Shown here piece after piece: positions 5,341 to 30,369 of a DNA stretch of 64,000 bases; positions within the stretch are counted from its first letter, which is position 1; every line of letters starts with the position of its first letter. Below the pieces are notes generated by a model that did not search any database, was not told the DNA's origin, and saw only the letters and a program-made list of their open reading frames with translations. Position numbers and translations under genes: made by a program. Source of the stretch: an uncultured bacterium (GTDB lineage: Bacteria > Verrucomicrobiota > Kiritimatiellia > RFP12 > UBA1067); assembly GCA_942493055.1 (NCBI GenBank), contig OW818680.1:4544174-4608173 (forward strand), in the 5' to 3' direction.

Positions 5341-5390
5341 ACAAGTCCGCTGCCAGCCATGCGGGAACAAATGAGATAGTAACTGGAAAA

Positions 5391-5597: not shown

Positions 5598-5666
5598 AGT
5601 GAAGTTATAGACACGATGCCTGTTTGTGCAGCAAATGAATTAAAACCAAAAAGAAGGAGAGACAAC

Positions 5667-6870: not shown

Positions 6871-9285
6871 ATGAAGAGATTACTGATCCTCGCGCTGGGA
6901 CTGACGTGTTCAGGCGCAACCCTGCATGCGGCCACAATCCCGCTGAACCTGCCCAGGCCTGACGGCCAGCCGGGCAATCCGAAGAAGCCAGTCAAGGTCT
7001 ACATCCTGGCAGGGCAGTCCAACATGGTGGGCATGGGCGACATCAGCGGCGCGAAAGCCCGCTATCCGACCGTCTACCTCTCGGCTGATCCCGCGCTGAT
7101 CCCGGGCGTCATACCGGTCGGCACCATCGATAACGGGAAGGCCGTGGACTTTGTACCAGTGGCCCGCCATGGACTCTTCGAGGCCAAGGCCTCCCTCTAT
7201 GATGATCCGGCCAAGCCGCCGCTCAAGACGATCCCTGTGGCCTTGGGGACGGTCACGGAAAAGCTTCCTGCCACGGAGGGGACGCAGAGTGTCGGGGTCA
7301 CCGCGCTGCTGGAGGTGCCTGAAACAGGGCTCTATACCGTACACGCGGGCTTTGAGGCGAGCACCCATGCGGTTGTCACCTTGGACAACAAGGAGGTCTA
7401 CCGCAAGGAGCTCAACGGCCAGCCAGCCTTCACGAAGATCGCTCTCGAAACAGGCAAGCGCTACCCGCTGGCCATCCGCTACTTCAAGAGCGGCTCAGCG
7501 GCGTTCTGGCTTCAGCAGGTGGACATCGAGGGCCGCGGCGATCTTGAGCTGTTGACGAAGAAGGAGAAGAAGTTCCAGTACCTGCTGGACGACACGGGCA
7601 AATGGAGTGTACGCAATGACGTTTACTTCCAGGAGGCGCGCCTGACACCCGAGGGGAAGGGTGCGCCAATGAGCGCCGAGTCTAACAAGCGTTGCCTGCC
7701 GAAGTGCAACTCGATCGGCCCCGAGGTGGGCTTCGGGTATGTGATGGGCGATTTCCACGATGAACAGGTGCTGCTGATCAAGACAGCCCAGGGCAATCGC
7801 TCCTTGGGCTTCGACTTCCGTCCGCCCTTGAGCGGACGCACGGATGCGCCGGGCGCCGAAAAGTACGAGGGGTATGAATATCGCGCCATGGTCGAAGGCG
7901 TGCGCAAGACGCTCGCCACGATTGACAAGGTCGTGCCCGGCTACCAAGGCCAGGGTTACGAGATGGCCGGCTTCTGCTGGTTCCAGGGCCACAAGGACAG
8001 TGGCGCGGCGAAAGAGGAGTACGAGAAACATCTCGTAAACTTGATTAATGATTTACGCAAGGAATTCAAAGCGCCGAAGATGCCTGCAGTCGTGGCCACG
8101 GTCGGCTTCCATGGCTACAGGATCGTGGAAGGCCCATGGAAGGGCATCTGGGAGGCGCAGATGGCGGTCGGCGATCCCAAGCAGCATCCGGAGTTCGCCG
8201 GTACGGTGGCCTCTGTGGACACCCGCGACTTCTGGCGCGAGATCGAAGAGTCACCAAGAAACCAGGACTACCACTACAACCGCAATCCTGAGACCTACCT
8301 GCTGGTGGGCGAGGCGATGGGGCGCGCAATGGTGCGTCTGCTCGGCGGCGAAGCTGAGGCGATTCCGAAGACCGACCGCGAAGCCCGCACAGCCGTGCGC
8401 GCGGCTGCTGAGGCAGCAGAGGCTGCAAAGCCGGCACCCACAGCCGAGCAGAAGGCAGCTTCGCTGATCGCCCTTAAGCCGATCATTCTAGACGGTGCGC
8501 TGGTCACTTACGTGAGCAACCCTCGGAATCTGGAGTCGTTGCAACTGGCGCTCAAGGGGACAAAGCCCGCAAAGATGCCGACGCATCTGGAGGATACGCT
8601 CGACGAGGTGGCGGACTATTATCGCACGATCGGCGTTCAGGAGTACGATTGGAAGCCGTTTGGCGGAGCGATGAAAGAGGCCTCTTGGGAGTACTATGGC
8701 TTCGACCTGGCAGGAACGCAGGCCAAAACCAACGGGATCAAGGACCTGAAGCAGCTAGCCCCTGCCGGCATGGAGAACTGGTCCGCGCCGGACTTCGATT
8801 CAAAGAAGGCGGGCTGGAAGAGCGGCGTGGCGCCGTTCGGCGTTGAGAAAGACGCGAACGTCTATCCTGAGTGGTATGGCCCCAGCAAGCGCACGCCTCC
8901 GAAAACAGTGTGCGAGAATGACGTGCTGCTGCTGCGCCAGAGTTTCGAGCTGCCACCGCTTAAGGAGGGCTGCCGCTACCGCATCCGGGTCTACGGCAGT
9001 GTCCATTCCAATTCGGGAGAAGGGTACGCGATCTACGTCAACGGCGAGCTGCTGGCGGAGTCCAAAGCTGGCGTCACGGCCTGGCGAAGAGAGGGCGCTA
9101 AGCCCAGGGGCGGCCATGTCAGTCCTGAATTCAGAGGTGAATTCAAAGGTGGCAAGGTGACGATCGCCGTAGCCAACTTCCCGATGAACAACAGGCGGGA
9201 AGATGGTTTCATCCCTGCCCGTGCGCCGCTGAGCGTCTGGATGGAAGAGATGAAAGTCCCGCCGCTCGGGGACCGGAAGCAGTAG
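6871..9285 (+). CDS. SASA-family carbohydrate esterase with inserted PA14-like beta domain and extra C-terminal domain
   Basis: Signal peptide MKRLLILALGLTCSGATLHA. 'KVYILAGQSNMVGMGD'. Inserted region 'YTVHAGFEASTHAVVTLDNKEVYRKELNGQPAFTKIALETGKRYPLAIRYFKSG' is PA14-like. 804 aa. Confidence 0.55.
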   Translation: MKRLLILALGLTCSGATLHAATIPLNLPRPDGQPGNPKKPVKVYILAGQSNMVGMGDISGAKARYPTVYLSADPALIPGVIPVGTIDNGKAVDFVPVARHGLFEAKASLYDDPAKPPLKTIPVALGTVTEKLPATEGTQSVGVTALLEVPETGLYTVHAGFEASTHAVVTLDNKEVYRKELNGQPAFTKIALETGKRYPLAIRYFKSGSAAFWLQQVDIEGRGDLELLTKKEKKFQYLLDDTGKWSVRNDVYFQEARLTPEGKGAPMSAESNKRCLPKCNSIGPEVGFGYVMGDFHDEQVLLIKTAQGNRSLGFDFRPPLSGRTDAPGAEKYEGYEYRAMVEGVRKTLATIDKVVPGYQGQGYEMAGFCWFQGHKDSGAAKEEYEKHLVNLINDLRKEFKAPKMPAVVATVGFHGYRIVEGPWKGIWEAQMAVGDPKQHPEFAGTVASVDTRDFWREIEESPRNQDYHYNRNPETYLLVGEAMGRAMVRLLGGEAEAIPKTDREARTAVRAAAEAAEAAKPAPTAEQKAASLIALKPIILDGALVTYVSNPRNLESLQLALKGTKPAKMPTHLEDTLDEVADYYRTIGVQEYDWKPFGGAMKEASWEYYGFDLAGTQAKTNGIKDLKQLAPAGMENWSAPDFDSKKAGWKSGVAPFGVEKDANVYPEWYGPSKRTPPKTVCENDVLLLRQSFELPPLKEGCRYRIRVYGSVHSNSGEGYAIYVNGELLAESKAGVTAWRREGAKPRGGHVSPEFRGEFKGGKVTIAVANFPMNNRREDGFIPARAPLSVWMEEMKVPPLGDRKQ

Positions 9286-9396
9286 GCAGTTAACAGTAGC
9301 AGTAAGCAGTGGGCAGTGGTTCAGGCAGATCTGACAGATCCGTCCGATCAGTCTGATCTGTCCCGTTGCATCACTGCCAAGCAGGAGAGCACGACG

Positions 9397-14075: not shown

Positions 14076-14269
14076 GGAATGCTGGAATAGTGGAAGGATG
14101 TTCCTGGAGGGACGTGCTCTGTCACGACCGCCGCTGGAATCGGCCACGACAGAGCGTGGCCCTCCATTGAGTTGGGAGGGGCACGCGCCTGCGTGCCTGT
14201 GGCGCAGAGGCCTGCGCCGCTCCCAAGAGAGGGCTTCTTCCAATATTCCACCAATCCATTATTCCTTCC
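14076..14269. repeat. GGAAT-armed inverted-repeat element (copy B)
   Basis: Arms gggaatgctggaatagtggaaggatg / cttcttccaatattccaccaatccattattccttcc. Core ggagggacgtgctctgtcacgacc...cacgacagagcgtggccctcc is shared with copy C. Confidence 0.55.
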
Positions 14270-17919: not shown

Positions 17920-18008
17920 GCCCGCCGCTCGGGGCGGCGCAGTAGCAGTGGGCAGTAGCAGTAGGCAGTGAAGTGCCCCGGGAATAAACCAAGGGGTAAC
18001 TTTGAAGA

Positions 18009-18155
18009 GGAATAATGGAATGTCAGAATACTGAGCAGATACCCTTTGGAGGGACGCGCTCTGTCGCGTCCGGCCACGACAAAGCGTGGCCCTCCAGAGC
18101 CGATATTTCCCATCATTTCAACATTCCCATATTCCAACATTCCATTGAAGTTACA
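18009..18155. repeat. GGAAT-armed inverted-repeat element (copy C)
   Basis: Arms ggaataatggaatgtcagaatactgagcag / tttcccatcatttcaacattcccatattccaacattccattg. Core ggagggacgcgctctgtcgcgtccggccacgacaaagcgtggccctcc. Confidence 0.55.
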
Positions 18156-18169
18156 GGCAAGTTGGGAAT

Positions 18170-18375
18170 GAGAGGCAAGCATTCGAATGCCACGAACCCC
18201 ACTGCGCTCGGCGAGACGCCCACGCTCCTTTCTCACAGCCAGGCAAAGGAGAACGGACTTTCCTGTCCGTTGCTCCACGGGTTGGAAAACCCGTGCCCCT
18301 TTGACAAGGACGCGCGCGTCCGCCACTGGGAGCATAGGCATCTTGCCTGTGCACACAACGAAGACATCAAGAAAC
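18170..18375. repeat. Composite mosaic intergenic repeat (family D, copy 1)
   Basis: Blocks 'aaggagaacggactttcctgtccgttgctccacgggttggaaaacccgtgcccc' and 'gggagcataggcatcttgcctgtgcac' recur, partly reverse-complemented, at 54766-55140 and 59050-59400. Confidence 0.45.
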
Positions 18376-18378
18376 TGA

Positions 18379-19431
18379 TTAATCTTTTTTAAACTTGAGT
18401 GGCACGGACAGCACAGAATTGCTGGTGCCTGTTGGAACGTTTGCTGAAGAGACTCCTATTATCTTTGAGGCTTCAGATGGGGAATGCTGTAAGGCGGCGA
18501 CGGGTGTAGTCGCTCTATTGGCCATGCATGACTGACAGACAGGCGCGTCTTTGCCTCGAGACAAAATCACATGTCCAACCGATAAGCCTCCAGAGACGCA
18601 GGCTACAATGAAAAAGATAATCATGTACCAATAAGCGGTCTGTTTATCAGTGTCCGTGGTGGATTTATATTTTTTAGCCTCTAAAATTTTCCATTCAGCA
18701 TCAAATAGTTGGGCAGGCAAGTGTTTCTCAAGCGCCGCTACGACTTTCGATTTTGCTCGGCTTAATGTGCCATACGAAATGATCGTTCGTCGCCAGTTGA
18801 AGCTGAGCGCTAAGCCCAGCAGTGCCAGAAGCGTTGCTACGGCTGTCGCATTTACAATTCCCGTCTTGTCGATGGACGAGATAGCGACTCCGGTACCCGC
18901 CAATAAAGCAGCTATGGCTGTCACATAAAGGGTGTTGACCTGCTGCCGTCTTGAAATGAGCGATTCCCAGCTTTTGACCATAACGTCATATTGCTTCCAT
19001 ATCATGTCGAGATCCTGCGTCTGGTCTTTTGAAAACAGAGCGCGTTCCAAAAGCATTTCAGCAATTCGGCCGGCAAGCTCTGAAGATTCCCATCCGATGG
19101 GCGAGAGTTTTGCATCCAGACATGCCGGGGGTTCCTTATAATCACGAGCCATACGTGCAACGAGGATGGGTTTGCCCAATCTGCAAGACTCAAGGATCTC
19201 CCAGTTGACCGGTGCACTACAATGTGTTTCTGGACCCACAAGACAGACCACAGCATCACAGGTTGCCAAGACTTTTGTCGCCTCTTCCTTCCAGTTTTCA
19301 GATGACGGAACTTGCTTTGACCCATCTATGAAAGGCATATTCGGTAGAAGGTCTCGTAGTTCAGCCAGTAAAGCATTGACGCGCTTCTGATCAGCATTCC
19401 GATTACTAAAGAAAATATTAAACTCTTGCAT
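18379..19431 (-). CDS. TIR-like (DUF1863/MTH538-type) domain protein with two C-terminal transmembrane helices
   Basis: N-terminus 'FNIFFSNRNADQKRVNALLAELRDLL...ATCDAVVCLVGPETHCSAPVNWEILESCRLGKPILVARM' fits the TIR-like/nucleoside-2-deoxyribosyltransferase-like fold. C-terminal hydrophobic helices LYVTAIAALLAGTGVAISSI and YWYMIIFFIVACVSGGLSVGHVIL. Low-GC gene flanked by repeats. Confidence 0.4.
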   Translation of the reverse strand: MQEFNIFFSNRNADQKRVNALLAELRDLLPNMPFIDGSKQVPSSENWKEEATKVLATCDAVVCLVGPETHCSAPVNWEILESCRLGKPILVARMARDYKEPPACLDAKLSPIGWESSELAGRIAEMLLERALFSKDQTQDLDMIWKQYDVMVKSWESLISRRQQVNTLYVTAIAALLAGTGVAISSIDKTGIVNATAVATLLALLGLALSFNWRRTIISYGTLSRAKSKVVAALEKHLPAQLFDAEWKILEAKKYKSTTDTDKQTAYWYMIIFFIVACVSGGLSVGHVILSRGKDAPVCQSCMANRATTPVAALQHSPSEASKIIGVSSANVPTGTSNSVLSVPLKFKKD

Positions 19432-19773
19432 TTTCCCCTTTAAGTACGCAGTACATCAATTGCAAAACTAAGCTTTGATTTAATTGCTTAACCACCTGAT
19501 TGGAGAATATTACAAAGTCTTAGATAAAAAGGCAATGCGGAAAAAATGATAAAACAATCCGAAGACGACGCCCAGAGATAATTGGGAAGGTGTCGGAATA
19601 AACTAACTAAGTTCACTGTAAAACTTAATTAGGGGGGCTATACCTTAAAATACTTTACTTTCAGCTTGATTTCTGGCTCTAAAAGCGCAAGAATTCATCT
19701 AATTCGTTTAGTGGCTGTCAGTAAACGCCAACTGATCTATAGTAGACGTTCGGGAAAAAGGAGAGGATATATA

Positions 19774-21288
19774 ATGAGTGACTTGAAGTTTTCCTGCCCA
19801 CACTGCAATCAACATCTGGAGTTGCCGGAGGACATGTGCGGCACCGTCGTTGACTGTCCGTCATGCGGAAATCGAATCCAGACGCCTACGTTCGCTCAGT
19901 TACGGGAAGGAGGGCCGGCTTCAACCTACACGATCATCGGAGTCGATGGCAGCCGATACGGTCCCGTCACAGCAGACCAGTTGCGACAGTGGATCAGAGA
20001 AGGGCGTGTTAACGCGGCGACACGTGTTCAAGTCGAAGGTAATTCCGACTGGAAAGCACTGGGGGAAATTGCCGAGTTCGCTGCTCTGTCATCCGTCAAG
20101 GCTCCGCCTCCGTATATTGGCAGCGTGACCGCTGGAACGGGAGCTGATGTGGCGAGTGATCAGCGGCCTCTGCCCAAGCCCATGCGCTATTCCCCACCAG
20201 AAAGCTCTGCGCTTCAGGGAAATCTTAATGGAGCCGAAACTGGGCTATCAGCCCACGGGATCTCACGCACCCCCATGTTTCTATTCACCTACATGGCACT
20301 GACGAAGAGCAAGGAGAAAAAAACAGGTTCAGTGACGGCCCCCAACCGCGTTGAAGCCATTCGAGCGCTCGAAAAGCACGGTTTGTTGCCCATTAGAATA
20401 TCGGAGCCAGAGGCCGTGCCCATTCCGGTCGTAGCACCGGCGGCCACCCCAAATATGGGCGCATCCCCTGCTGGCGGGCATTCGGGGTCAGTAGAGACGG
20501 GCGAACGGTTTTGCCCAGTTGCCGTGGTGCCTCCATTGCGTGAGCCGCTTATGATTACGCTCGCTGAGAGCGTCCCCGCAGATGCACCCGGCGAACGATT
20601 CGAAGTGGTGCGCCAGAACGGGGAAACCGTGACGATCGCATCGGCGGAGCGCCTGCGCGAATACATTCTGAAGAGCTATTTCGCAAGAAATACGCAAGTG
20701 CGCAAAGTTCTGGTGGACGAGGCCGGCACGCGTACAGAATCCGCCTGGACAGCCCTGGAGCAGCTCGGCGACTGCAGACCATCCATTGATGTTTTGTATC
20801 GTCCAATTTGGCATCGAACAATGAAGTGGCTCTGGTATGGCGTGATCGGCGGCGTCATCCTGAAGGCGTTGGATACGGCGGTTTTCATGTTTGAGGCTAA
20901 TGAGTCTGTAGGCGTTCTCTGGGTTGCCATGATCCTTGGGCTCGGCTTGTCGGTCAAATGGCATTGGGTCAAGTGGGTAGCCTTTATTATAATCGGAGGA
21001 GTCCTCAAGGAAGGGAAGCTCAATGTGGGGGTCCTGCTCCCTATGTTTGGAGGCGCCTTATTCACGACCGTACTGATTGGCGCGCTCTTCGGGGCGCTTG
21101 TGGGCATGATCATCGGAACGATTATAGGCTATTGCAGGGCATCCTCGGGACCGAGGGCCCCAGACGCTCTCCCAGAGGGGAACAAGCCCCTGACTCTAGG
21201 CTTGTATGCGCCCATTGGCGGACTTGTTGTCCTCATTCCGATCTATATCTGGCTGATCAATAAAATTGCTAACGCTTATGGGAATTAA
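19774..21288 (+). CDS. Membrane protein: N-terminal zinc ribbon + DUF4339 (GYF-like) domain + GspF-N-terminal-like segment + C-terminal TM helices
   Basis: Start ATG 19774 (RBS aaaaaggagagg). 'CPHCNQHLELPEDMCGTVVDCPSCGNRIQTP' zinc ribbon. 'YTIIGVDGSRYGPVTADQLRQWIREGRVNAATRVQVEGNSDWKALGEIAEF' matches DUF4339/GYF_2. 'FTYMALTKSKEKKTGSVTAPNRVEAIRALEKHGLLPIRI' resembles the T2SS-F N-terminal motif. Hydrophobic C-terminus. Confidence 0.5.
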   Translation: MSDLKFSCPHCNQHLELPEDMCGTVVDCPSCGNRIQTPTFAQLREGGPASTYTIIGVDGSRYGPVTADQLRQWIREGRVNAATRVQVEGNSDWKALGEIAEFAALSSVKAPPPYIGSVTAGTGADVASDQRPLPKPMRYSPPESSALQGNLNGAETGLSAHGISRTPMFLFTYMALTKSKEKKTGSVTAPNRVEAIRALEKHGLLPIRISEPEAVPIPVVAPAATPNMGASPAGGHSGSVETGERFCPVAVVPPLREPLMITLAESVPADAPGERFEVVRQNGETVTIASAERLREYILKSYFARNTQVRKVLVDEAGTRTESAWTALEQLGDCRPSIDVLYRPIWHRTMKWLWYGVIGGVILKALDTAVFMFEANESVGVLWVAMILGLGLSVKWHWVKWVAFIIIGGVLKEGKLNVGVLLPMFGGALFTTVLIGALFGALVGMIIGTIIGYCRASSGPRAPDALPEGNKPLTLGLYAPIGGLVVLIPIYIWLINKIANAYGN

Positions 21289-21314: not shown

Positions 21315-22535
21315 ATGATAAACATGAATGACTTGATTTTTGACTGCCCTCACTGCACCAAACATTTTGAGTTGCCGGAAGACCTGCGCAGGACTGCTGT
21401 TTACTGCCCATCATGCGGCAGGCAGATGCAGATGCCTCAGCTCTTGCCGATACGGGAAGGAGAACCGGGCACAAGCTACACGCTGATCTGCAATGATGGG
21501 AAGCGATACAGTCCTCTCACGGCAGACCAATTGTTGCAGTTGATTAAAGATGGGCGCGCTGACAAGACGACAGACGTTCAAATCATAGGACATGGCGACT
21601 GGAAGAGACTTGGGGAACTTCCCGAGTTCGCTGTCCCGTTATCCAACAGTGTGCCGATTCCGCCGCCGCCCCCCCTCCCCAGTCTGGCACGGGCACAGCC
21701 ATCCTTCGCAAGTCGGCCAAAAACGCCATCTTCATCTCCTCATCACCTGACGACATTCCCAGTTGCGGTTATCATCTTGTTGCACTTCGTGACCTTTGGC
21801 TTATTCACGTTCATCTGGTTGAACGTGATGCACGGGAAGATGTGCCGCGTCAGAGCCGATGATCCGTCTGCAGGCAGGGCCGTGGGCTTCTGCTTCATCC
21901 CGTTCTTCAACTTCTACTGGATATTTTTTACTTTCCGGAGGCTGTGTTTGCGCATCGACGAGCAGCGAGGAGTGTATGGCTTGCAGCCCAGCAATCTCAG
22001 AGGTTTAGCGACCACGGCTTGCATCTTCCAGGTCATCCCGTACCTCAATATCCTGATCGGCTATACGATCATCACTCCGATCTTCGCAGGGATGATGCAA
22101 TCAAGTGTTAATCAACTGGTCCGCACAAGCGTCAAAACTTTTCCGCGCACTATACTTCAGTCCTTCGCTGGCCCGGAGCGTGGAATCTCCGGAGTGGTGA
22201 TTGCCGCAATCATCTGCGCCTGTCTCATCCCTGTCACAGGTCTGTTGTCTGCCATAGCGTTTCCCTCTTTTATGAAGGCCCAAGAGGTCAGTCAGCGCCG
22301 GGCCTGCATCTACAATATGCGGCAATTAGAAGGGTGCAAGGAGCAAGCAGCATTGGTGGGCAGCATCGGCGGAAACGGCAAAAACATCACGGAGCAAGAT
22401 GTGTCGCCGTATCTGAAGAACGGTTTTTCGGGTCTGATCTGCCCCAAAGGCGGCTTCTACACAATCAACCCACTCGAAAAAGAACCTATGTGTTCAGAGC
22501 ATGGGTCGCTCTCCGAGGCGATGGAGAGAAGATAA
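21315..22535 (+). CDS. Paralog: zinc ribbon + DUF4339 + Pro-rich linker + TM + pseudopilin-like (T2SS GspG-like) C-terminal domain
   Basis: Alternative start ATG 21324 (MNDLIFDCPHC...). 'YTLICNDGKRYSPLTADQLLQLIKDGRADKTTDVQIIGHGDWKRLGELPEF'. After the TM helix, 'AIAFPSFMKAQEVSQRRACIYNMRQLEGCKEQAAL' and 'CPKGGFYTINPLEKEPMCSEHG' resemble verrucomicrobial pseudopilin bodies. Confidence 0.5.
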   Translation: MINMNDLIFDCPHCTKHFELPEDLRRTAVYCPSCGRQMQMPQLLPIREGEPGTSYTLICNDGKRYSPLTADQLLQLIKDGRADKTTDVQIIGHGDWKRLGELPEFAVPLSNSVPIPPPPPLPSLARAQPSFASRPKTPSSSPHHLTTFPVAVIILLHFVTFGLFTFIWLNVMHGKMCRVRADDPSAGRAVGFCFIPFFNFYWIFFTFRRLCLRIDEQRGVYGLQPSNLRGLATTACIFQVIPYLNILIGYTIITPIFAGMMQSSVNQLVRTSVKTFPRTILQSFAGPERGISGVVIAAIICACLIPVTGLLSAIAFPSFMKAQEVSQRRACIYNMRQLEGCKEQAALVGSIGGNGKNITEQDVSPYLKNGFSGLICPKGGFYTINPLEKEPMCSEHGSLSEAMERR

Positions 22536-23170: not shown

Positions 23171-23255
23171 TTCTCGCAAGCCAAATATGCCACAATGACC
23201 ACGACATTTGTAATGTAGCCCCCGAATAGTGGGGCATGCCTATTATAGGAGTGGA

Positions 23256-26200
23256 ATGGAAAATCTATCGTGGAATAAGACTGCAGATCATCCCAAGGAG
23301 GGTGGACGTGTGGAACTTGAGCCTGGTACGCGGTTGGGACGTTATGAGATTTTGCGACTGCTCGGACGCGGTGGCATGGGCCAGGTTTACCTGGCTCGGC
23401 ATGAGTTGCAAAAGACGCTGCACGCATTAAAGATCCTGCCGTCGGAGTTCTCGGGCCGCGCGGGCTTCGTGGAGCGCTTCCGTACGGAACTGCAGACCAT
23501 GGCGAGGTTGCAGCATTCAAACATCGTCCATGTCCAGTACTCAGACGTCGAGGCCGGGCTCTACTATCTGGTGATGGACTTCATCGCGGCCGACGGCACG
23601 GAGGAGCCGTACGACCTGGAGGAGGCGCTGGCAGTCGAGAAGCGGCTGGAGCCTGAGACGGTGAGGCGGCTGATGCTCCGGCTCTGCGATGGGCTCTCCT
23701 TCGCCCACGGCCAGGGCGTGGTCCACCGCGACCTGAAGCCCGCGAACGTCCTGCTGACCTCCAAAGACCTTTCTGCTGCTGACGTGAAGATCTGCGACTT
23801 CGGCCTGGCGCGGGTGGTCGGCGAGGAGCAGGTGCGCACGATGGTGGCGCAGAGCATGCAGCGTTCGATGTCCATGGGCGACCAGGACACCTTCACCGAG
23901 AAGAAGCGCTCCGAGCGCAGCAGCACCGGCTCCGTGATGGGCACCTACGGCTACATGAGCCCCGAGCAGGAGGAGGGCAAGCCCGCGGACGAACGCAGCG
24001 ACCTCTACTCGCTGGGCGTGATGATGTACCGCATGATCACCGGCCAGCGGCTGCGGGGCCGCGCCAAGGCGCCGTCGGCAGTCGTGCAAGGGCTGGACAA
24101 GGCATGGGACGCGATCATCGACAAGTGCCTGGAGAACGACCCTGCGGCACGCTGGCAGACTGCGGTTGCTCTGAAGGCGGCATTGGACGCTGGCGGGAGG
24201 GTCACGCAGGGCAGTTCTAAAGTTCTAAAGTTCGGGAGTTCTAAAGTTAAGGGGAACAAGGCGTGGCTTTGGCTGGCTGGCGCTGCGGTCATCGCCGTTG
24301 TCTCAATTTTGTCCGTCAGGGCAATTCATTCCAGCAACGCGAAACGCGCCGAGGCGGCCCGTGCGGCTGCGGCATCCGCCGCGCTCGACGCGGCGCAGCG
24401 CGAGAAGGTTGCCGGGCTCGAGGCTGCGGTGGAAGCGGCGCTGGCGGCGGGCGATTTAAAGACGGCCGATTCCAAGATCGCGGAGCTGGGGCAGGCCGGG
24501 GGCGCAACCGCGCTGCGCAAGCGTTACGAGTCCAAGGCCGGCGAGAGCGATACGAACAAGCGGAGCGCGGTGGCTTCAATGGCGCGCGAGGAGGCGATGA
24601 AACTGGACGCGGGACAGGGCTTCGGGGAGAAGCTCAAGGCGCTGGAGACGGCCTGGCGCGAAGCCGAGGCGGCGCGGCAGAGCCAGGGCTGGACTCAGGC
24701 AGTGACCGGCTATGACGCGGTCATTGCGTCGTCCAAGACGCTGAAAGATGCGGAGGTCTCACGCGAAGGCGCGAAGACGCGAAGAGGTGAAGCTGAGAAG
24801 GCCAAGTCTGACGCTGAGCAGTCCCAGTCCGCGACCGACGCAGCGGATCTTTATGCGGCTGGAGGGCGAGGCTGTGTCCGAGCCGCAGGAGCCTTTGAGA
24901 AAGGCGACTTCGATGTGGCATCGAAGGACTGGCAGGAAGCGGCGCAATCTTATGCCTCGGCGCAGAAGCGGGCACTGGCGGCCCAGGATTGCCGCAAGGT
25001 GAAAGAGTCGTTCGAAGAGGCGCTGGCGCGTGACCGCGCGCTGCTGGAGAAGTACGGAGGGTCAAAATGGGCCGAGGTGAAGCTTCAGCAGAAGGCCGGC
25101 GAAGCGTCTTCGTCTGACCCTGCGGAGGGTAGTCGCGCCTACGGATTGGCGTTGGCGGCACTGCCGGGGGCGGTGGCCGAGGCCGGGAAGGCTCAGCAGG
25201 CGGATGCCGAGTATGTGGCTGCGCAGAAAAAAGCGGCGGACGATAAAAAGGCGAAAGAGCAGGCCGAAGCCGAGCGTCTAGCGGAGGAGCAAAAAGCGAT
25301 TGCCGCGAAGGCGCAACGACAAAAAGACTTTGATGGAGAGATGGTTTCCGGCAAGTCGGCGTGGGATAAGGCTGACTACTCAACCGCCTACAAAGCCTAT
25401 AAGAAGGCATTAGTATTGTGCCCGGGTGATTCAGCCGCGCAAACGAATTATTGCCAGGTGGATGCGATGCTGTCGCGCCTGAACCCTTATCGTACCGCAA
25501 AGAAAGGATGCTGGGTCAAGCGGGCCTATACTACAAAAATGAAAATGTCTTTTCCTCTTGGATCAAATTCAACGACAACACAGGAGGAAATACAATTCTT
25601 GGATGTCGGGGAAGATGTAGTTGTGACGCGCAACACCCTTAAGTCCTCATCGTCAATGACGATTGCTGGAGGATATGCCAGCGAGACTGTTACGGAACAT
25701 ACTCAGAATATCAACGAAGCATTCGGTGAAGCGAAAAGTACTCCGATCAGACAAATCACAAATGGCAAAGATAGCACCGCATCAATTAAATCGACGATGG
25801 AAAAGCTTAAGACATTTGATGAAAAGAGGGAGTTTTTGGGTTGCGAGACGATCAGGATTGGAGCACAAGAATATACAACGAAGTGCCTTCTTAAATCGGA
25901 AAAGAGAGACTTTGGATCAGGGATGCAGACGGCTATGGAGACAAAATATTGGATTTCCGAGGATACAATAGCCCCAACATTAAAACATACGATCCGCGTT
26001 AAAGTATATAACAATTCTAACACATCTTTATTGTCTGAGTCGTTTTCAACGGTATCCCTTGTTTCATTATCGCAGGAAGATGTGACAGTCAATGGGCGGG
26101 TTTTGAAGTGCAGAAAAGAGGTTAGGGTGACAGAAAACCAGAAAGATGGAACAACGGGGACATTTACTTCCTGGGAGTGTTTAGACTACCCCTGGATCGG

Positions 26201-26288
26201 CATGGTCAAAAAGGAGTCTGTGATTAAAGGGAAGAACTTTACCTCAACTGCATCGGATATTTTAGAGTCGTTTGGGCTTGGGTCGTGA
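23256..26288 (+). CDS. Hanks-type Ser/Thr protein kinase - TM - long Ala/Glu coiled coil - unknown ~270-aa C-terminal domain
   Basis: ORF-track start GTG 23229; ATG 23256 preferred (RBS aggagtgg). Kinase motifs 'LGRGGMGQVYLARH', 'ALKIL', 'HRDLKPANVLL', 'DFGLAR', 'GTYGYMSPEQ'. TM 'AWLWLAGAAVIAVVSILSV'. N-terminal ~650 aa nearly identical to the next gene. Confidence 0.8.
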   Translation: MENLSWNKTADHPKEGGRVELEPGTRLGRYEILRLLGRGGMGQVYLARHELQKTLHALKILPSEFSGRAGFVERFRTELQTMARLQHSNIVHVQYSDVEAGLYYLVMDFIAADGTEEPYDLEEALAVEKRLEPETVRRLMLRLCDGLSFAHGQGVVHRDLKPANVLLTSKDLSAADVKICDFGLARVVGEEQVRTMVAQSMQRSMSMGDQDTFTEKKRSERSSTGSVMGTYGYMSPEQEEGKPADERSDLYSLGVMMYRMITGQRLRGRAKAPSAVVQGLDKAWDAIIDKCLENDPAARWQTAVALKAALDAGGRVTQGSSKVLKFGSSKVKGNKAWLWLAGAAVIAVVSILSVRAIHSSNAKRAEAARAAAASAALDAAQREKVAGLEAAVEAALAAGDLKTADSKIAELGQAGGATALRKRYESKAGESDTNKRSAVASMAREEAMKLDAGQGFGEKLKALETAWREAEAARQSQGWTQAVTGYDAVIASSKTLKDAEVSREGAKTRRGEAEKAKSDAEQSQSATDAADLYAAGGRGCVRAAGAFEKGDFDVASKDWQEAAQSYASAQKRALAAQDCRKVKESFEEALARDRALLEKYGGSKWAEVKLQQKAGEASSSDPAEGSRAYGLALAALPGAVAEAGKAQQADAEYVAAQKKAADDKKAKEQAEAERLAEEQKAIAAKAQRQKDFDGEMVSGKSAWDKADYSTAYKAYKKALVLCPGDSAAQTNYCQVDAMLSRLNPYRTAKKGCWVKRAYTTKMKMSFPLGSNSTTTQEEIQFLDVGEDVVVTRNTLKSSSSMTIAGGYASETVTEHTQNINEAFGEAKSTPIRQITNGKDSTASIKSTMEKLKTFDEKREFLGCETIRIGAQEYTTKCLLKSEKRDFGSGMQTAMETKYWISEDTIAPTLKHTIRVKVYNNSNTSLLSESFSTVSLVSLSQEDVTVNGRVLKCRKEVRVTENQKDGTTGTFTSWECLDYPWIGMVKKESVIKGKNFTSTASDILESFGLGS

Positions 26289-26346: not shown

Positions 26347-29300
26347 ATGAGTGACGGGCAACAGACGATGAATAATGATGTGACGCGGGCCGTGCCGGGC
26401 GGCGCGGGCCGGGCGGAGCTTGAGCCTGGCACACGGCTGGGACGTTATGAGGTTCTGCGCCTCTTAGGTCGCGGGGGCATGGGCCAGGTCTATCTGGCGC
26501 GACATGAGCTGCAGAAGACGCTGCATGCGCTGAAGATCCTGCCGTCCGAGTTCTCGGGCCGCGCCGGCTTCGTGGAACGCTTCCGCACGGAGCTGCAGAC
26601 AATGGCCCGCTTGCAGCATCCGAACATCGTCCATGTCCAGTACTCCGACGTCGAGGCCGGGCTCTATTACCTCGTGATGGATTTCGTGGCGGCGGACGGC
26701 ACCGAGGAGCCATACGACCTGGAGGAGGCACTGGCAATCGAGAAGCGGCTGGAGCCGGAGATCGTGAGGCGGCTGATGCTCCGGCTCTGCGACGGACTCT
26801 CCTTCGCCCACGGCAAGGGCGTGGTCCACCGCGACCTCAAGCCCGCGAATATCCTGCTGACGTCAAAGGATCTGTCGGCTGCGGACGTGAAGATCTGCGA
26901 CTTCGGGCTGGCGCGGGTGGTCGGCGAGGAGCAGGTGCGCACGATGGTGGCGCAGAGCATGCAGCGGTCCATGTCCATAGGCGACCAGGACACCTTCACC
27001 GAGAAGAAGCGTTCCGAACGTAGCAGCACGGGCTCTGTGATGGGCACGTACGGCTACATGAGCCCCGAGCAGGAGGAGGGCAAACCCGCGGACGAACGCA
27101 GCGACCTCTACGCGCTGGGCGTGATGATGTACCGGATGATCACAGGACAGCGGCTGCGGGGGATGGCCAAACCCGCCTCGCAGGTGGTGCCCGGGCTTGA
27201 TCCGGCATGGGACGCGATCATCGGCAAGTGCCTGGAGAACGACCCTGCGGCACGCTGGCAGACAGCGGCGGAGTTGAAAGCCTCCCTAGCGGGAGGGAGA
27301 GTGGCAGTCGGTAGTAGCAGTCGGCAGTGGAACCAGGCCGCGCTGTGGCTGGTGGGTGCGGCGGTTGCGGTCGCGTTGGGGTATGGGGCGTACAGGATGT
27401 ATGCGACCTATAGGGTAGAGATGGAGAGGGATAGGGCCGCCAGTGAGCAGACTGCGAAACTCGATGCGGCGCAGCGGGAGAAGGTTGCCGGGCTTGAAGC
27501 GGCGGCAGAAGCAGCGCTGGCCGCAGGGGATCTGGAGAAAGCGGGCACCAAGATCACGGAGCTGGGGCAACTCGGAGGGACACGCGTCGGCGTGTCCGAG
27601 CTGCGCAAGCGGTACGAGGCCAAGGCCGGCGAGCGCGAAGTGAACAAGCGGTACGCGGCTGCGTCGCTGGCACGGGAAGAGGCGCAGAAGCTGAACCCAG
27701 GCCAGGGCTTCGGGGAGAAGATCAAGGCTTTGGAGACCACGTGGTGCGAAGCTGAGGCTGCGCGTCAGAGCCAGGGCTGGGGCCAGGCGCAGACCGGCTA
27801 CGACGCGGTGCTTGCATCGTGCAAGGCGCTGGGTGAGTTGGATGTCTCGCGCAGAGGCGCAGAGGCGCGGAGGGGTGAAGCGGATAAGGCCAAGTCTGAC
27901 GCTGAGCAGGCCCAGTCCGCGACCGACGCAGCAGATCTTTATGCGGCTGGAGGGCGAGGCTGTGCGCGAGCCGCCGAAACCTTTGAGAAAGGTGAGTTCG
28001 ACGCGGCAGGCAAGGACTGGCAGGAGGCCGTTTCCGCATACACCTCTGCGCGGAAAAATGCAGTAGCAGCGCAGGATTGCCGCAAGGTGAAAGCCTCGTT
28101 CGAATCGGCGCTGGCGCGTGACCGCGCGCTGCTGGAGAAGCACGGCGGGGCAAAATGGGCTGAGGTTCAGAAACAGCAGAAGGCTGCCGAGGTATCGTCG
28201 GCTGACCCTGCCGAGGCTAGCCGAGCCTACGGATTAGCATTGGCAGCCTTGCCGGGAGCAGTGACCGAGGCGAAGGCCGCTGAGCAGGATCGGCTGGCGA
28301 AGGAGAAGGGTGATGCCGAGGCGAAGGCTGCGGAGCAGGATCGGCTGGCGAAGGAGAAGGGTGAAGCCGAGGCGGAGCAGCGGCGGCAGGCCTCAGAGCG
28401 TAAGACACGTGAAGAGAAAGAATCCCGTGATCTGGCCGAGGCGGCCTATACAGCGTGGGCAGCGAAGGCGCAACCGCTGGCAGAGCGTCTCGGGCGAGAC
28501 ATAACTTCGGTTAAAGGGGCTGCCGCGAAGGCGCTGCTAGCCGAGACGGATGCTATACTCATAGGGACGGACAAGCTGGATATTACTTACCTAACGTCCG
28601 CTAGCGTGTCTGGGTTGAAGGCACTCCAGACCAAGTTGCAAAGTCTGAAGGTCGGGATCAAGATCGGGTTCGAACCTGGAGACACGGAAACGGTTGATTT
28701 AGGTTCCGGCGTAAAAATCGAGCTGGCCTGGTGCCCAGCAGGTAGCTTTATGATGGGGAGCCCCTCCACTGAAGCGAACAGGGAGAGCGATGAGTCCCAG
28801 CACCGCGTGACGCTGACGAAAAGCTTCTGGCTTGGGCGCACGGAGGTAACGCAGGCGCAGTGGGAGGCGATCATGGGGAGCAACCCGAGCAAGTTTAAAG
28901 GATCAGATTTACCCGTTGAGACAGTGAGCTGGGACGACTGTCTGGCGTTTATCAGAAAGTTGAATGGAAAACTTGAAACTGGAAATTTGAATTTCCGCCT
29001 GCCCACAGAGGCGGAGTGGGAGTACGCTTGCCGGGCTGGGAGCACGGGTCCATATGCGGGAACGCTGGAGGAGATGGGCTGGTATTTTTCCAACAGCGGA
29101 AACACGATCCACGCAGTCGGACGCAAGTGCGCGAACGCCTGGGGACTGTACGATATGCACGGAAACGTCTGGGAGTGGTGCCAAGACTGGTATGCTGAGT
29201 ATCCTGCGGGTTCCGTGACAGATCCTGAGGGGCCTGCTTCAGGTGCTGGCCGTGTCCGCCGCAGCGGCGGGTGGAACATGAGCAAGGGGAACTGTCGATC

Positions 29301-30369
29301 CGCGGATCGGAACAGGCCTGGCCCGGGCATCCAAATCATCTACGTCGGCTTCCGCCTTGCGAGGAACGCATCGATAGACGAGCCTTCTACTGCTGATGCC
29401 AAGACCGAACAGCAGATGCAACACGAAAACCGGGAAGATGGCAAGGAACCTGTTGATGGGCAAGCATGGGTCTCGCCCTCTTCGGGCATGGAATTCGTCT
29501 GGATACCTGCCCTGAAGATCTGGGTGGGCAAGTACGAGGTGACAAACGGCGAGTATCGGAAGAAGGAGGCTGCGCACGACAGCAAGGATTACAAGGGGAA
29601 CAGCTTGAACGGCGACCGCCAGCCGGTGGTGCAGGTGAATTTCGACGATGCGAAGGCGTATGCCGCGTGGCTTACGGAAAAAGACAGAGAAAAGCTAGGA
29701 GGAAAGCGTTATCGGGTGATCTCGGAGATGGAGTGGCAGACTGTGGCGCAGTGCGGTGACAACAGGGAGTACCCATGGGGAAACGCGCTGCAGCCGAAGT
29801 ACGGAAACTATTATAAAACAGACGCTTATGATGACGGGTTTGTGGTTACGTGTCCCGTGGAACAGAGCGGCAAGAACGACTGGGGCCTTTACGGGATCGG
29901 AGGCAACGTGTGGGAGAGCTGCGCGATGGACGTCTCCGGCTCGTCGTTCGGGGCTTGGCGCGGCGCGTCGTGGGGCTACGACTATCCCGACGTTTTGCGG
30001 TGCGCGGCTCGCGACGGCGGCGGCGGATCGGGCCGCAGCTACTTCTACGGCTTCCGCCTTGTCTTGTCAGGTAACCAGCGAAGTGATGTTGATGAAATAT
30101 CCTCATGTGTTAGCCTGATCAGGAATGCACTCTACAAAGCTTGGAAGCAACCGAAACAAAGTGAAGCGGGTTCACGTCCGGCCAAACTTTATATTCGCCT
30201 TGATGCTTCAGGCAGATTCGTCAATTATCGTATTACTCAATCGTCAGGCAGCACTATCTTTGACACGAGCGTACTGAAGGCCGCAGCCAATTGCCCGCCA
30301 GTTCGTGATGTAACAGCAGGTTTTCTTAAAAAGCATGACGAACTTACAATCGAGTTCAGACTCGAATAG
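26347..30369 (+). CDS. Hanks-type Ser/Thr kinase - TM - coiled coil - two FGE-sulfatase (SUMF1/DUF323-like) domains - TonB_C-like C-terminal domain
   Basis: Same kinase motifs as the previous gene. FGE-like blocks 'VSWDDCLAFIRKLN', 'RLPTEAEWEYACRAGSTGPY', 'GLYDMHGNVWEWCQDWY', then a second copy 'GLYGIGGNVWESC'. C-terminus 'LYIRLDASGRFVNYRITQSSGSTIFDTSVLKAAANCPP' is TonB C-terminal-like. Internal 36-bp tandem repeat at about 28270-28370. Confidence 0.8.
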   Translation: MSDGQQTMNNDVTRAVPGGAGRAELEPGTRLGRYEVLRLLGRGGMGQVYLARHELQKTLHALKILPSEFSGRAGFVERFRTELQTMARLQHPNIVHVQYSDVEAGLYYLVMDFVAADGTEEPYDLEEALAIEKRLEPEIVRRLMLRLCDGLSFAHGKGVVHRDLKPANILLTSKDLSAADVKICDFGLARVVGEEQVRTMVAQSMQRSMSIGDQDTFTEKKRSERSSTGSVMGTYGYMSPEQEEGKPADERSDLYALGVMMYRMITGQRLRGMAKPASQVVPGLDPAWDAIIGKCLENDPAARWQTAAELKASLAGGRVAVGSSSRQWNQAALWLVGAAVAVALGYGAYRMYATYRVEMERDRAASEQTAKLDAAQREKVAGLEAAAEAALAAGDLEKAGTKITELGQLGGTRVGVSELRKRYEAKAGEREVNKRYAAASLAREEAQKLNPGQGFGEKIKALETTWCEAEAARQSQGWGQAQTGYDAVLASCKALGELDVSRRGAEARRGEADKAKSDAEQAQSATDAADLYAAGGRGCARAAETFEKGEFDAAGKDWQEAVSAYTSARKNAVAAQDCRKVKASFESALARDRALLEKHGGAKWAEVQKQQKAAEVSSADPAEASRAYGLALAALPGAVTEAKAAEQDRLAKEKGDAEAKAAEQDRLAKEKGEAEAEQRRQASERKTREEKESRDLAEAAYTAWAAKAQPLAERLGRDITSVKGAAAKALLAETDAILIGTDKLDITYLTSASVSGLKALQTKLQSLKVGIKIGFEPGDTETVDLGSGVKIELAWCPAGSFMMGSPSTEANRESDESQHRVTLTKSFWLGRTEVTQAQWEAIMGSNPSKFKGSDLPVETVSWDDCLAFIRKLNGKLETGNLNFRLPTEAEWEYACRAGSTGPYAGTLEEMGWYFSNSGNTIHAVGRKCANAWGLYDMHGNVWEWCQDWYAEYPAGSVTDPEGPASGAGRVRRSGGWNMSKGNCRSADRNRPGPGIQIIYVGFRLARNASIDEPSTADAKTEQQMQHENREDGKEPVDGQAWVSPSSGMEFVWIPALKIWVGKYEVTNGEYRKKEAAHDSKDYKGNSLNGDRQPVVQVNFDDAKAYAAWLTEKDREKLGGKRYRVISEMEWQTVAQCGDNREYPWGNALQPKYGNYYKTDAYDDGFVVTCPVEQSGKNDWGLYGIGGNVWESCAMDVSGSSFGAWRGASWGYDYPDVLRCAARDGGGGSGRSYFYGFRLVLSGNQRSDVDEISSCVSLIRNALYKAWKQPKQSEAGSRPAKLYIRLDASGRFVNYRITQSSGSTIFDTSVLKAAANCPPVRDVTAGFLKKHDELTIEFRLE

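What the first reader, a model, noticed from the sequence alone, without database searches (positions are those of the whole stretch)
18379..19431. Orphan TIR-like (DUF1863-type) domain fused to a 2-TM C-terminus in a low-GC, repeat-flanked patch
TIR-like or SLOG-like domains fused to membrane-spanning effectors are a recurrent theme in abortive-infection and anti-phage systems (NADase or nucleotide-signal-triggered membrane disruption). The gene sits alone on the minus strand between mosaic repeats and an AT-rich 330-bp spacer.
Basis: partly seen in the sequence, partly recalled or inferred. Interest (0 to 1): 0.55.

Follow-up and report, generated by a model that had tools for sequence, protein, structure and literature searches.

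The report
Single-gene TIR–membrane (RipA-family) defence candidate
This lone, horizontally acquired gene fuses an immune-type TIR enzyme domain to a three-helix membrane domain that in other microbes is a separate gene always sitting next to a TIR gene, so it is most likely a one-protein version of a Thoeris-like anti-phage suicide switch, though this has not been tested experimentally.

Summary
The ORF at 18379-19431 (-) is real (350 aa). Residues 1-132 are a ThsB/DUF1863-type TIR domain: Pfam PF08937 scores above its cut-off, the best solved-structure match is a bacterial TIR, and the catalytic-type Glu (E78) is conserved. Residues 146-294 match Pfam PF24838 '8xMP' (85.6 bits), which NCBI names 'RipA family octameric membrane protein'. 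This domain has three hydrophobic helices, not two. The gene is compositionally foreign (GC3 47% against about 74% in neighbours) and is the only non-overlapped minus-strand ORF of at least 200 aa in the first 55 kb. No partner gene is conserved across seven loci.

The 8xMP family is large (2247 representatives). Of the top 147, 86 are TIR fusions and 48 are 8xMP alone. All 10 stand-alone 8xMP genes I inspected, from bacteria, archaea and plasmids, lie beside or overlap a ThsB-TIR gene. That is a Thoeris-like operon, probably the untested '3TM' class of Yirmiya et al. 2025.

Best reading: a fused, single-chain Thoeris-like abortive-infection system. The TIR makes an NAD-derived signal, which activates an oligomeric membrane effector.

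It is a new variant of a known kind. The function is inferred, not shown.

The parts
18379..19431 (-). Complete gene for the 350-aa TIR-8xMP fusion protein (stop codon at 18379-18381).
   Evidence: ORF listing. There are 33 homologues, 43-95% identical, almost all with the same two-domain architecture. The exact protein is on record on a 6.1-Mb NCBI contig.
19036..19431 (-). ThsB/DUF1863-type TIR domain (aa 1-132).
   Evidence: Pfam PF08937 scores 33.2 bits against a cut-off of 21.2, and TIR_2 gives E 1.8e-4. The AF2 model has pLDDT of about 90 here. The best Foldseek hit in the PDB is the Bacillus cereus TIR 8fz9. A family profile matches 8fz9 by sequence at E 2.5e-5.
19198..19200 (-). Codon for Glu78, the predicted catalytic glutamate (W77-E78-I79 motif).
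   Evidence: Invariant in all 34 close homologues. It is Glu in 86 of 88 fused TIRs and aligns with the Glu of the B. cereus ThsB 'RWVRYEI' motif and of type IV and VII Thoeris TIRs. The sequence was read directly.
18997..19035 (-). Flexible linker between the TIR and the membrane domain (aa 133-145).
   Evidence: pLDDT dips to about 60 in this stretch. Length and sequence vary across the alignment.
18550..18996 (-). 8xMP / RipA-family membrane domain (aa 146-294).
   Evidence: Pfam PF24838 scores 85.6 bits against a cut-off of 30. The model of the domain alone has pLDDT 91.5 and is all long helices. A homologue is named 'RipA family octameric membrane protein' by NCBI.
18871..18936 (-). Predicted TM helix 1 (aa ~166-187).
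   Evidence: Kyte-Doolittle 19-residue mean of 1.5 or more. It continues the long helix 138-185 in the model.
18796..18864 (-). Predicted TM helix 2 (aa ~190-212). A loop of only about 5-7 residues joins it to TM1.
   Evidence: Hydropathy peak of 2.05. G206 is invariant.
18637..18795 (-). Conserved cytoplasmic segment between TM2 and TM3 (aa 213-265). Together with aa 146-165 it is the candidate ligand- or partner-binding region.
   Evidence: It holds 11 Lys/Arg residues, which fits the positive-inside rule. It carries most of the family-wide invariant or near-invariant residues: W213, K227, E235, L238, E246, W247, Y255 and T259. The pre-TM1 helix carries Y148, E156, R161 and R162.
18562..18633 (-). 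Predicted TM helix 3 (aa ~267-290).
   Evidence: Strongest hydropathy peak, 2.24. A C-terminal hydrophobic segment recurs at the same relative position in all ten fused and stand-alone relatives profiled.
18382..18549 (-). Lineage-specific, predicted disordered C-terminal tail (aa 295-350). It is predicted to be periplasmic.
   Evidence: pLDDT is below 50. It is present only here and in the 95%-identical P0001. Most homologues end at about residue 293.
19432..19773 (.). AT-rich spacer (GC 36.5%) between the TIR-8xMP gene and the divergently oriented GYF-domain gene. It presumably holds the promoter.
   Evidence: Composition. The sequence is unique within the window. No sigma-70 consensus was found on the minus strand, which is not informative for this phylum.
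17920..18378 (.). 3' flank made of a mosaic of dispersed intergenic repeats. A GC-rich hairpin lies at 17922-17939, next to the stop codon of the upstream DUF6288 gene.
   Evidence: Repeat finder and blastn. Hairpin from the terminator scan.

Best explanation
The gene encodes a self-contained, single-polypeptide relative of Thoeris anti-phage systems.

Proposed mechanism:
1. The cytoplasmic N-terminal ThsB-type TIR domain, with catalytic Glu78, is the infection-responsive enzyme.
2. On infection it converts NAD+ into an ADP-ribose-derived signal, possibly a cADPR isomer.
3. The C-terminal 8xMP/RipA-family domain is the effector. It has three TM helices and a conserved cytoplasmic helical head, and is probably a homo-oligomeric (nominally octameric) ring.
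4. When the signal binds, or when the tethered TIRs rearrange, the ring compromises the inner membrane and aborts the infection.

What is shown:
- The domain identities.
- The conserved Glu.
- The predicted 3-TM, N-in topology.
- The foreign base composition of the gene.
- The lack of a partner gene.
- The recurrent linkage of TIR and 8xMP, both as gene fusions and as neighbouring genes.

What is inferred:
- NADase or cyclase activity.
- The nature of the signal.
- The oligomeric state.
- Membrane disruption.
- Anti-phage function.
For: (1) Domain calls: PF08937 and PF24838 both score above their curated cut-offs. PADLOC ThsB also matches. The TIR fold is supported by Foldseek.

(2) E78 is invariant among the 34 close homologues. 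It is Glu in 86 of 88 fused TIRs and aligns with the ThsB Glu.

(3) The fusion is the dominant architecture. Of 147 top representatives, 86 are TIR-8xMP and 48 are 8xMP alone. The family has 2247 representatives at E<=1e-3.

(4) Every stand-alone 8xMP gene examined (10 of 10) has an adjacent ThsB_TIR gene, often overlapping it. The hosts are Actinomycetota, Thaumarchaeota, Deltaproteobacteria, Gammaproteobacteria, Cyanobacteria, Alphaproteobacteria and Haloarchaea. Two loci carry two TIR genes around one 8xMP gene, as in multi-ThsB Thoeris operons.

(5) Fused and split forms interleave on a rough tree of the 8xMP domain, with about 26 state changes. This suggests repeated fusion and fission.

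(6) The second TIR clade found next to 8xMP is 62-66% identical to TIRs listed with a predicted '3TM' effector. It is also 62% identical to a validated type VII ThsB in Yirmiya et al. 2025, bioRxiv 10.64898/2025.12.03.692087.

(7) The same preprint shows that 3-TM ring-forming (ThsF/DUF2270) and SLATT (ThsH) membrane proteins are signal-gated Thoeris effectors.

(8) Family-wide conservation sits in the cytoplasmic helices rather than the TM helices.

(9) The gene looks horizontally acquired. Relatives sit near transposases, toxin-antitoxin modules, GmrSD, prophage genes, or on plasmids.
Against: - There is no experimental evidence for any TIR-8xMP protein.
- The window gene is not in a recognisable defence island. 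One homologue simply follows proS.
- The fused protein has no obvious separate sensor.
- Tethering eight TIRs on a ring could favour a direct NADase role instead of signalling.
- The only studied protein said to belong to the family is Francisella RipA. It is a housekeeping or virulence-linked inner-membrane protein with a genetic tie to LpxA, and it is transcribed independently of its neighbours.
- The oligomeric state could not be modelled here.
- 8xMP shows no HMMER-level relation to SLATT or DUF2270.
- That the '3TM' class equals 8xMP is inferred only from the similarity of the partner TIRs.
Confidence: 0.5

Rival explanations
1. Membrane-scaffolded NADase. The 8xMP ring is only an oligomerisation scaffold or membrane-proximal sensor, for example of phage-induced membrane or envelope perturbation. 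The TIR domains are the effector and kill by depleting NAD+ once they are brought into an active arrangement. This would resemble SARM1's octameric ring, TIR-STING or TIR-SAVED.
For: The family name implies an octamer. The catalytic Glu is conserved. Many bacterial TIRs fused to other domains are NAD+-depleting effectors, and Yirmiya et al. set standalone TIR proteins aside for that reason. The fused gene has no partner.
Against: Stand-alone 8xMP genes pair with small ThsB-type TIRs. These include a clade shared with signalling ThsBs of types IV, VII and VIII, sometimes with two TIRs per 8xMP. That is the sensor-effector layout of Thoeris. The periplasmic loop is only about 5-7 residues long. 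The strongest conservation lies in the cytoplasmic helices of 8xMP, which is more than a passive scaffold would need.
Confidence: 0.25
2. Not immunity. It is a RipA-like envelope-homeostasis membrane protein whose TIR-like domain binds or processes a nucleotide metabolite for regulation.
For: NCBI names the family after RipA. RipA is a homo-oligomeric inner-membrane protein with two essential cytoplasmic domains. It is genetically linked to LpxA and GlmU and transcribed on its own. The window neighbourhood and one homologue's neighbourhood are housekeeping-like.
Against: The gene is compositionally foreign and patchily distributed. Only 3 of 185,579 species genomes carry this subfamily. Its context differs in every locus. 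Relatives occur on plasmids among toxin-antitoxin genes and next to transposases. The TIR is of the ThsB immune type. I could not verify by sequence that Francisella RipA belongs to PF24838.
Confidence: 0.1
3. A membrane-anchored nucleoside 2-deoxyribosyltransferase or DNPH1-like nucleotide N-glycosidase, rather than a TIR.
For: DNPH1 and NDT structures appear among the Foldseek hits at E 4e-4 to 8e-3. One or two of 148 family members weakly match the NDT Pfam models.
Against: A TIR structure ranks first. The sequence profile matches TIR (8fz9 and MyD88) and not NDT. The Pfam TIR models match the window protein and the NDT models do not. The two folds are known to be related, so such cross-hits are expected.
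Confidence: 0.05

Closest known systems
Predicted '3TM' Thoeris configuration (ThsB + 3-TM effector) in Table S1 of Yirmiya et al. 2025, bioRxiv 10.64898/2025.12.03.692087
   Same: A TIR is paired with a three-TM membrane protein. The TIRs next to stand-alone 8xMP genes are 62-66% identical to TIRs carrying this label.
   Different: That class is a two-gene operon and has not been tested. The study deliberately excluded standalone TIR proteins such as this fusion. The window TIR belongs to a different TIR clade ('TIRa').
Type V Thoeris (ThsB + ThsF/DUF2270, PF10028)
   Same: A TIR signal (3'cADPR) acts on an effector with three TM helices. That effector is modelled as a circular homo-oligomer with positively charged cytoplasmic pockets.
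   Different: The genes are separate. The Pfam family is different, with no PF10028 match at E<=0.01 among 148 8xMP proteins. That system is experimentally validated and this one is not.
Type VII Thoeris (ThsB + ThsH/SLATT; canonical cADPR) and type II Thoeris (ThsB + Macro-TM; His-ADPR)
   Same: A TIR-made nucleotide activates a membrane-spanning, oligomerising killer. A validated type VII ThsB is 62% identical to a TIR that sits next to an 8xMP gene.
   Different: No SLATT or Macro domain is detectable here. Here the TIR and the membrane domain form one chain.
Francisella tularensis RipA (FTT_0181c / FTL_1914)
   Same: A small (178 aa) homo-oligomeric inner-membrane protein with two essential cytoplasmic domains. 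NCBI names the 8xMP family after it.
   Different: RipA has no TIR. [quoted passage not shown] I did not verify its membership of PF24838 by sequence.
SARM1, TIR-STING and TIR-SAVED (oligomer-activated TIR NADases)
   Same: TIR domains are held on an oligomerising module. SARM1 is an octameric ring (my own knowledge). SARM1 TIR is among the structural hits.
   Different: The scaffolds are soluble and unrelated (SAM, STING, SAVED). This is an analogy only.

Membership tests
ThsB-type TIR domain (Pfam PF08937, formerly DUF1863) | Matches the family HMM above the curated gathering score. | tested here: met
   33.2 bits against a cut-off of 21.2, aa 11-95. PADLOC ThsB scores 2.8e-7.
ThsB-type TIR domain (Pfam PF08937, formerly DUF1863) | Flavodoxin-like TIR fold. 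| tested here: met
   The AF2 model has pLDDT of about 90 over aa 1-130. The top Foldseek PDB hits are TIRs (8fz9, SARM1, MyD88, ThsB, SPARTA) at probability 1.0.
ThsB-type TIR domain (Pfam PF08937, formerly DUF1863) | Catalytic glutamate after the central strand (the 'W..EI' motif; E85 in B. cereus ThsB). | tested here: met
   E78 is invariant in 34 homologues. It is Glu in 86 of 88 fused TIRs and aligns with the ThsB Glu.
ThsB-type TIR domain (Pfam PF08937, formerly DUF1863) | NAD+ cleavage or cyclisation activity. | not testable with these tools
   This needs an enzyme assay or LC-MS.
8xMP / RipA-family octameric membrane protein (Pfam PF24838) | Matches the family HMM above the gathering score. 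| tested here: met
   85.6 bits against a cut-off of 30, aa 146-279, covering 132 of 136 profile positions.
8xMP / RipA-family octameric membrane protein (Pfam PF24838) | Three TM helices with an N-in topology and two cytoplasmic segments. | tested here: met
   Hydropathy and Lys/Arg distribution. The helical model agrees. This is a prediction only.
8xMP / RipA-family octameric membrane protein (Pfam PF24838) | Homo-octameric assembly. | not testable with these tools
   Only monomer prediction was available. No solved homologue was found by sequence or by fold.
Thoeris defence system | A ThsB TIR protein that senses infection and makes a signal. | tested here: inconclusive
   A ThsB-type TIR with the catalytic Glu is present. 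Signal production was not tested.
Thoeris defence system | A separate effector gene in the same operon as thsB. | tested here: not met
   There is no second gene. No neighbour is conserved across seven loci and no other TIR or 8xMP lies in the 64-kb window. The effector-like domain is fused to the TIR instead. Relatives do have the split two- or three-gene form.
Thoeris defence system | Protection against phage, and enrichment in defence islands. | not testable with these tools
The window neighbourhood shows no defence genes apart from generic kinase-domain hits. Relatives are often near mobile or defence genes, but this is anecdotal.
SLATT membrane effectors | Match to a SLATT Pfam model. | tested here: not met
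   No SLATT hit at E<=10 for the window protein. None at E<=0.01 in 148 family members. A remote profile-profile relation was not tested.
Nucleoside 2-deoxyribosyltransferase / DNPH1 | Match to the NDT Pfam models and a best structural match to NDT or DNPH1. | tested here: not met
   There is no Pfam NDT hit. DNPH1 ranks below the TIR.

The most novel reading that the evidence does not exclude
TIR-8xMP is a complete 'Thoeris in one chain'. An octameric inner-membrane ring carries eight TIR domains. It senses infection, makes a cADPR-type signal and gates its own pore in cis. If so, the 8xMP/RipA fold is a previously unrecognised nucleotide-gated membrane effector. Francisella RipA, whose function has been unclear since 2008, would then be a domesticated relative that responds to a nucleotide ligand.
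Probability: 0.3. Interest if true: 0.65.

Novelty: new variant of a known kind. Interest (0 to 1): 0.5.

Why it matters
Thoeris-type immunity is defined by a TIR sensor gene and a separate effector gene. Systematic screens have explicitly discarded standalone TIR proteins. If the fused form works as proposed, three things follow.

- It adds a membrane effector family (8xMP/RipA) to TIR signalling.
- It shows that the sensor and the effector can be collapsed into one polypeptide. That gives a minimal system for studying how a TIR signal gates a membrane assembly.
- It offers a testable hypothesis for RipA, an unexplained Francisella virulence determinant: that RipA is a ligand-gated oligomeric membrane protein.

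The architecture is abundant in metagenomes. It makes up 86 of the top 147 cluster representatives of a family with more than 2000 representatives. I found no publication on it in the searchable library.

Tried and rejected
- **Literature.** Searches for '8xMP', 'PF24838', 'octameric membrane protein', 'RipA family' and 'DUF7701' found nothing relevant. Searches for a RipA octamer structure also found nothing. The RipA topology paper PMC3294868 is not held.
- **Conserved partner gene.** An all-against-all blastp of ORFs from seven loci found no shared neighbour. Own HMM scans found no second TIR or 8xMP in the window.
- **Phage carriage.** No relatives were found on IMG/VR contigs. The phage collection gave only weak TIR-only hits, plus one 33-kb Haematospirillum plasmid that is also filed there.
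- **Bracketing repeats or a mobile-element signature.** The flanking repeats are dispersed intergenic repeats on one side only. There are no tRNA genes and no Rfam hits in the window. The promoter and terminator scan was at background level.
- **NCBIfam.** No model matched the window protein or stand-alone 8xMP proteins.
- **The claim that BcTir's catalytic residue is K37** (bioRxiv 10.1101/2023.05.26.542521). I did not use it. My alignment places E78 opposite BcTir's 'PHEV' Glu and ThsB's Glu.
Full report
**1. The observation**

A 350-codon ORF lies exactly at 18379-19431 on the minus strand. It starts at an ATG preceded by AAGGGG. It is a real gene. The identical protein is on record from a 6.1-Mb NCBI contig. 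A database search returned 33 homologues at 43-95% identity, nearly all about 293 aa long with the same two-domain layout.

The gene has GC 47.7% and GC3 47.3%. The two genes upstream have GC3 of 74%, and three of the four genes downstream have 61-68%. The 342-bp spacer up to the next gene has GC 36.5%. It is the only non-overlapped minus-strand ORF of at least 200 aa in the first 55 kb of the window.

The 459 bp on its 3' side are a patchwork of short repeats. These recur in other intergenic regions of the window, at about 5.4-5.6, 9.26, 14.1, 54.8-55.0 and 59.2 kb. They lie on one side only, so they are genome-wide intergenic repeats and not the ends of an element. The window has no tRNA genes and no Rfam matches.

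**2. The TIR half**

Pfam places residues 11-95 in PF08937 (ThsB_TIR, the former DUF1863) at 33.2 bits against a cut-off of 21.2. TIR_2 falls just below its own cut-off. PADLOC's ThsB model also matches.

An AlphaFold2 model built on the family alignment has pLDDT of about 90 across residues 1-130. Its best match among solved structures is the Bacillus cereus TIR protein 8fz9. DNPH1, SARM1-TIR, MyD88-TIR, ThsB and SPARTA TIRs follow. A family profile also finds 8fz9 by sequence at E 2.5e-5.

The DNPH1 and deoxyribosyltransferase hits reflect the known kinship of the two folds. Their Pfam models do not match this protein.

Glu78 sits in the motif V-N-W-E-I.
- It is invariant in all 34 close homologues.
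- It is Glu in 86 of 88 TIRs fused to this membrane domain.
- It aligns with the Glu of 'RWVRYEI' in B. cereus ThsB and with the equivalent Glu of type IV and type VII Thoeris TIRs.

That this ThsB Glu is catalytic is established knowledge, not something I tested.

**3. The membrane half**

Residues 146-279 match Pfam PF24838, '8xMP, octameric membrane protein family', at 85.6 bits against a cut-off of 30. Hydropathy shows three hydrophobic helices at about 166-187, 190-212 and 267-290.

A loop of only about 5-7 residues joins the first two helices. The 53-residue stretch between the second and third holds 11 Lys/Arg residues. This implies that the N-terminus and that stretch are cytoplasmic, and that the C-terminus is outside.

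The model shows long continuous helices running from the cytoplasm into the membrane. The last 56 residues are predicted to be disordered. They occur only here and in a 95%-identical relative.

Across 148 diverse family members, nearly all of the most conserved positions lie in the cytoplasmic helices. These are Y148, E156, R161, R162, W213, K227, E235, L238, E246, W247, Y255 and T259. Only G206 lies in a TM helix.

No solved structure resembles this domain:
- Sequence searches found nothing.
- Viral models gave nothing.

NCBI names one stand-alone homologue 'RipA family octameric membrane protein'. Francisella RipA is described as a 178-aa homo-oligomeric inner-membrane protein with two essential cytoplasmic domains. 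It is transcribed on its own and is genetically linked to LpxA. I could not obtain the RipA sequence to verify that it belongs to the family.

**4. Context and relatives**

The window neighbours are:
- a sialate O-acetylesterase-like protein;
- a DUF6288/HEAT protein;
- two GYF-domain membrane proteins;
- two tandem Ser/Thr kinases.

None is a defence gene by PADLOC apart from generic kinase-domain hits. No second TIR or 8xMP is present in the 64 kb.

Among 185,579 species genomes, only three carry this subfamily. All are Verrucomicrobiota MAGs. An all-against-all comparison of ORFs from seven loci found no shared neighbour. The contexts vary:
- downstream of proS;
- a prophage, methylase and NB-ARC region;
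- next to an IS3 transposase.

The fused gene therefore stands alone.

**5. The key comparative result**

A profile of the membrane domain finds 2247 cluster representatives at E<=1e-3. I classified the best 147 with my own HMMs:

| Architecture | Count |
|---|---|
| TIR-8xMP fusion | 86 |
| 8xMP alone | 48 |
| Other N-terminal domain (8 of 148 family members scanned against Pfam have DUF7701) | 13 |

I then examined ten stand-alone 8xMP genes from unrelated hosts. Every one has a ThsB_TIR gene immediately beside it, usually overlapping its start.

| Host or source | Locus |
|---|---|
| Metagenome fragment | L009 |
| Tessaracoccus caeni | L010 |
| 6.4-Mb genome, TIR-8xMP-TIR | L011 |
| Nitrosotenuis archaeon | L014 |
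| Deltaproteobacterium | L015 |
| 1.9-Mb genome | L016 |
| Gammaproteobacterial contig, with an uncalled upstream TIR and a downstream TIR | L017 |
| Synechococcus plasmid | L018 |
| Haematospirillum plasmid, among toxin-antitoxin modules | L019 |
| Haladaptatus plasmid | L020 |

On a rough neighbour-joining tree of the membrane domain, fused and split forms interleave with about 26 state changes. That count is an upper bound, because some 'split' calls may be truncated genes. Even so, repeated fusion and fission plus strict adjacency is classical evidence that the two modules work together.

**6. Link to known systems**

Two TIR clades accompany 8xMP.
- 'TIRa' is the clade of the window protein. 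It sits directly upstream of 8xMP and overlaps it.
- 'TIRb' has the signature YNLFISHSW...NYSVPKDDPIH...YSKWI.KEI.

TIRb proteins next to 8xMP are 62-66% identical to TIRs listed with a predicted, untested '3TM' effector in Table S1 of Yirmiya et al. 2025. They are also 62% identical to the ThsB of a validated type VII (SLATT) system.

That preprint makes three relevant points:
- A 3-TM protein (ThsF/DUF2270) is modelled as a ring with basic pockets and is triggered by 3'cADPR.
- SLATT proteins (ThsH) are the effectors of systems whose TIRs make canonical cADPR.
- Standalone TIR proteins were removed from the screen.

The fused architecture therefore falls outside what that study examined. 8xMP itself shows no HMMER-level similarity to SLATT or DUF2270.

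**7. Mechanism**

The best-supported model is a Thoeris-like system collapsed into one chain.
1. The cytoplasmic TIR, through E78, turns NAD+ into an ADPR-derived signal on infection.
2. The oligomeric 8xMP module responds through its conserved cytoplasmic head.
3. That response damages the membrane and aborts the infection.

I give this 0.5, and about 0.7-0.75 for a defence role of any kind.

The main rival, at 0.25, reverses the roles. The ring would merely assemble the TIRs into an NAD+-depleting effector. The split operons argue against this, because they use small ThsB-type TIRs, sometimes two per 8xMP.

A housekeeping RipA-like role gets 0.1. It fits the unremarkable neighbourhood. It does not fit the foreign composition, the patchy distribution, the variable context or the plasmid and toxin-antitoxin settings.

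A deoxyribosyltransferase-like enzyme gets 0.05. The sequence models do not support it.

**8. Verdict**

The one real correction is three TM helices instead of two.

The protein is a member of two existing Pfam families, and NCBI annotates relatives only as 'TIR domain-containing protein'. Its function has not been characterised in any source I could search. I class it as a new variant of a known kind: a fused, single-gene Thoeris-like TIR-membrane effector. Interest is moderate at 0.5. It would rise if the 8xMP/RipA fold proves to be a nucleotide-gated membrane effector.

Noticed in passing
window 23229-26288 and 26347-30369 (+): Two tandem paralogous Hanks-type Ser/Thr kinase genes (1019 and 1340 aa; DNA repeats D2, D4 and D11 at 78-85% identity). 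Both score strongly against PADLOC PD-T4-6 kinase models (E about 1e-64), but only through the generic kinase domain.
   Followed up: partly
window 19666-21288 and 21315-22535 (+): Two adjacent paralogous membrane proteins with an N-terminal zinc ribbon (DUF7560) and a GYF_2 domain. The second also has DUF4234 and a C-terminal segment that looks like a prepilin-type N-terminal sequence on visual inspection (not tested). A 188-aa ORF with no Pfam match follows.
   Followed up: partly
window 5379-5618, 9258-9311, 14105-14166, 17920-18378, 54835-54982, 59185-59271: A family of short dispersed intergenic repeats, 75-92% identical and in both orientations. They are assembled as a mosaic in the 3' flank of the TIR gene and may be REP- or MITE-like elements of this genome.
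   Followed up: partly
window 50445-50744 / 55333-55632 and 55139-55340 / 57638-57839; region 50-64 kb: Near-identical direct repeats (99% and 97%) lie inside a lower-GC block (GC 37-53%, against about 57% upstream). Gene orientation switches there as well. This may be an insertion-sequence or island region.
   Followed up: no
window 39258-43055 and 43080-46322 (+): Two large tandem paralogous genes (1265 and 1080 aa) that share several 71-82% identical DNA segments (repeats D3, D5, D7 and D8).
   Followed up: no
window 59116-59371: A short 14-nt-period repeat array (GAACATCCAACATT-like units) beside one copy of the dispersed repeat.
   Followed up: no
proteins P0071, P0101, P0112, P0116, P0158, P0171, P0180 (8xMP family): About 5% of top 8xMP representatives carry a ~110-aa DUF7701 domain (PF24792) in place of the TIR (8 of 148 members by Pfam; seven identified by eye are listed). 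The function is unknown. It may be an alternative sensor or signal module for the same membrane effector.
   Followed up: partly
L010 4540-5541; L014 1094-3452 and L016 1096-3475: In Tessaracoccus, a 333-aa gene with no Pfam domain overlaps the start of the TIR gene, so the operon may have three genes. In two further loci (one from a Nitrosotenuis MAG), the TIR+8xMP pair directly follows TGT, Ogg-HhH and QueC genes in the same orientation.
   Followed up: no
PDB 8fz9 / bioRxiv 10.1101/2023.05.26.542521: The closest solved TIR, BcTir, closely resembles by eye the ThsB of a validated type VII (SLATT, cADPR) Thoeris system in Table S1 of Yirmiya et al.; the identity was not computed. The BcTir preprint calls it catalytically inactive with K37 at the catalytic position. 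My alignments place a Glu ('PHEV') at the ThsB catalytic position instead.
   Followed up: partly
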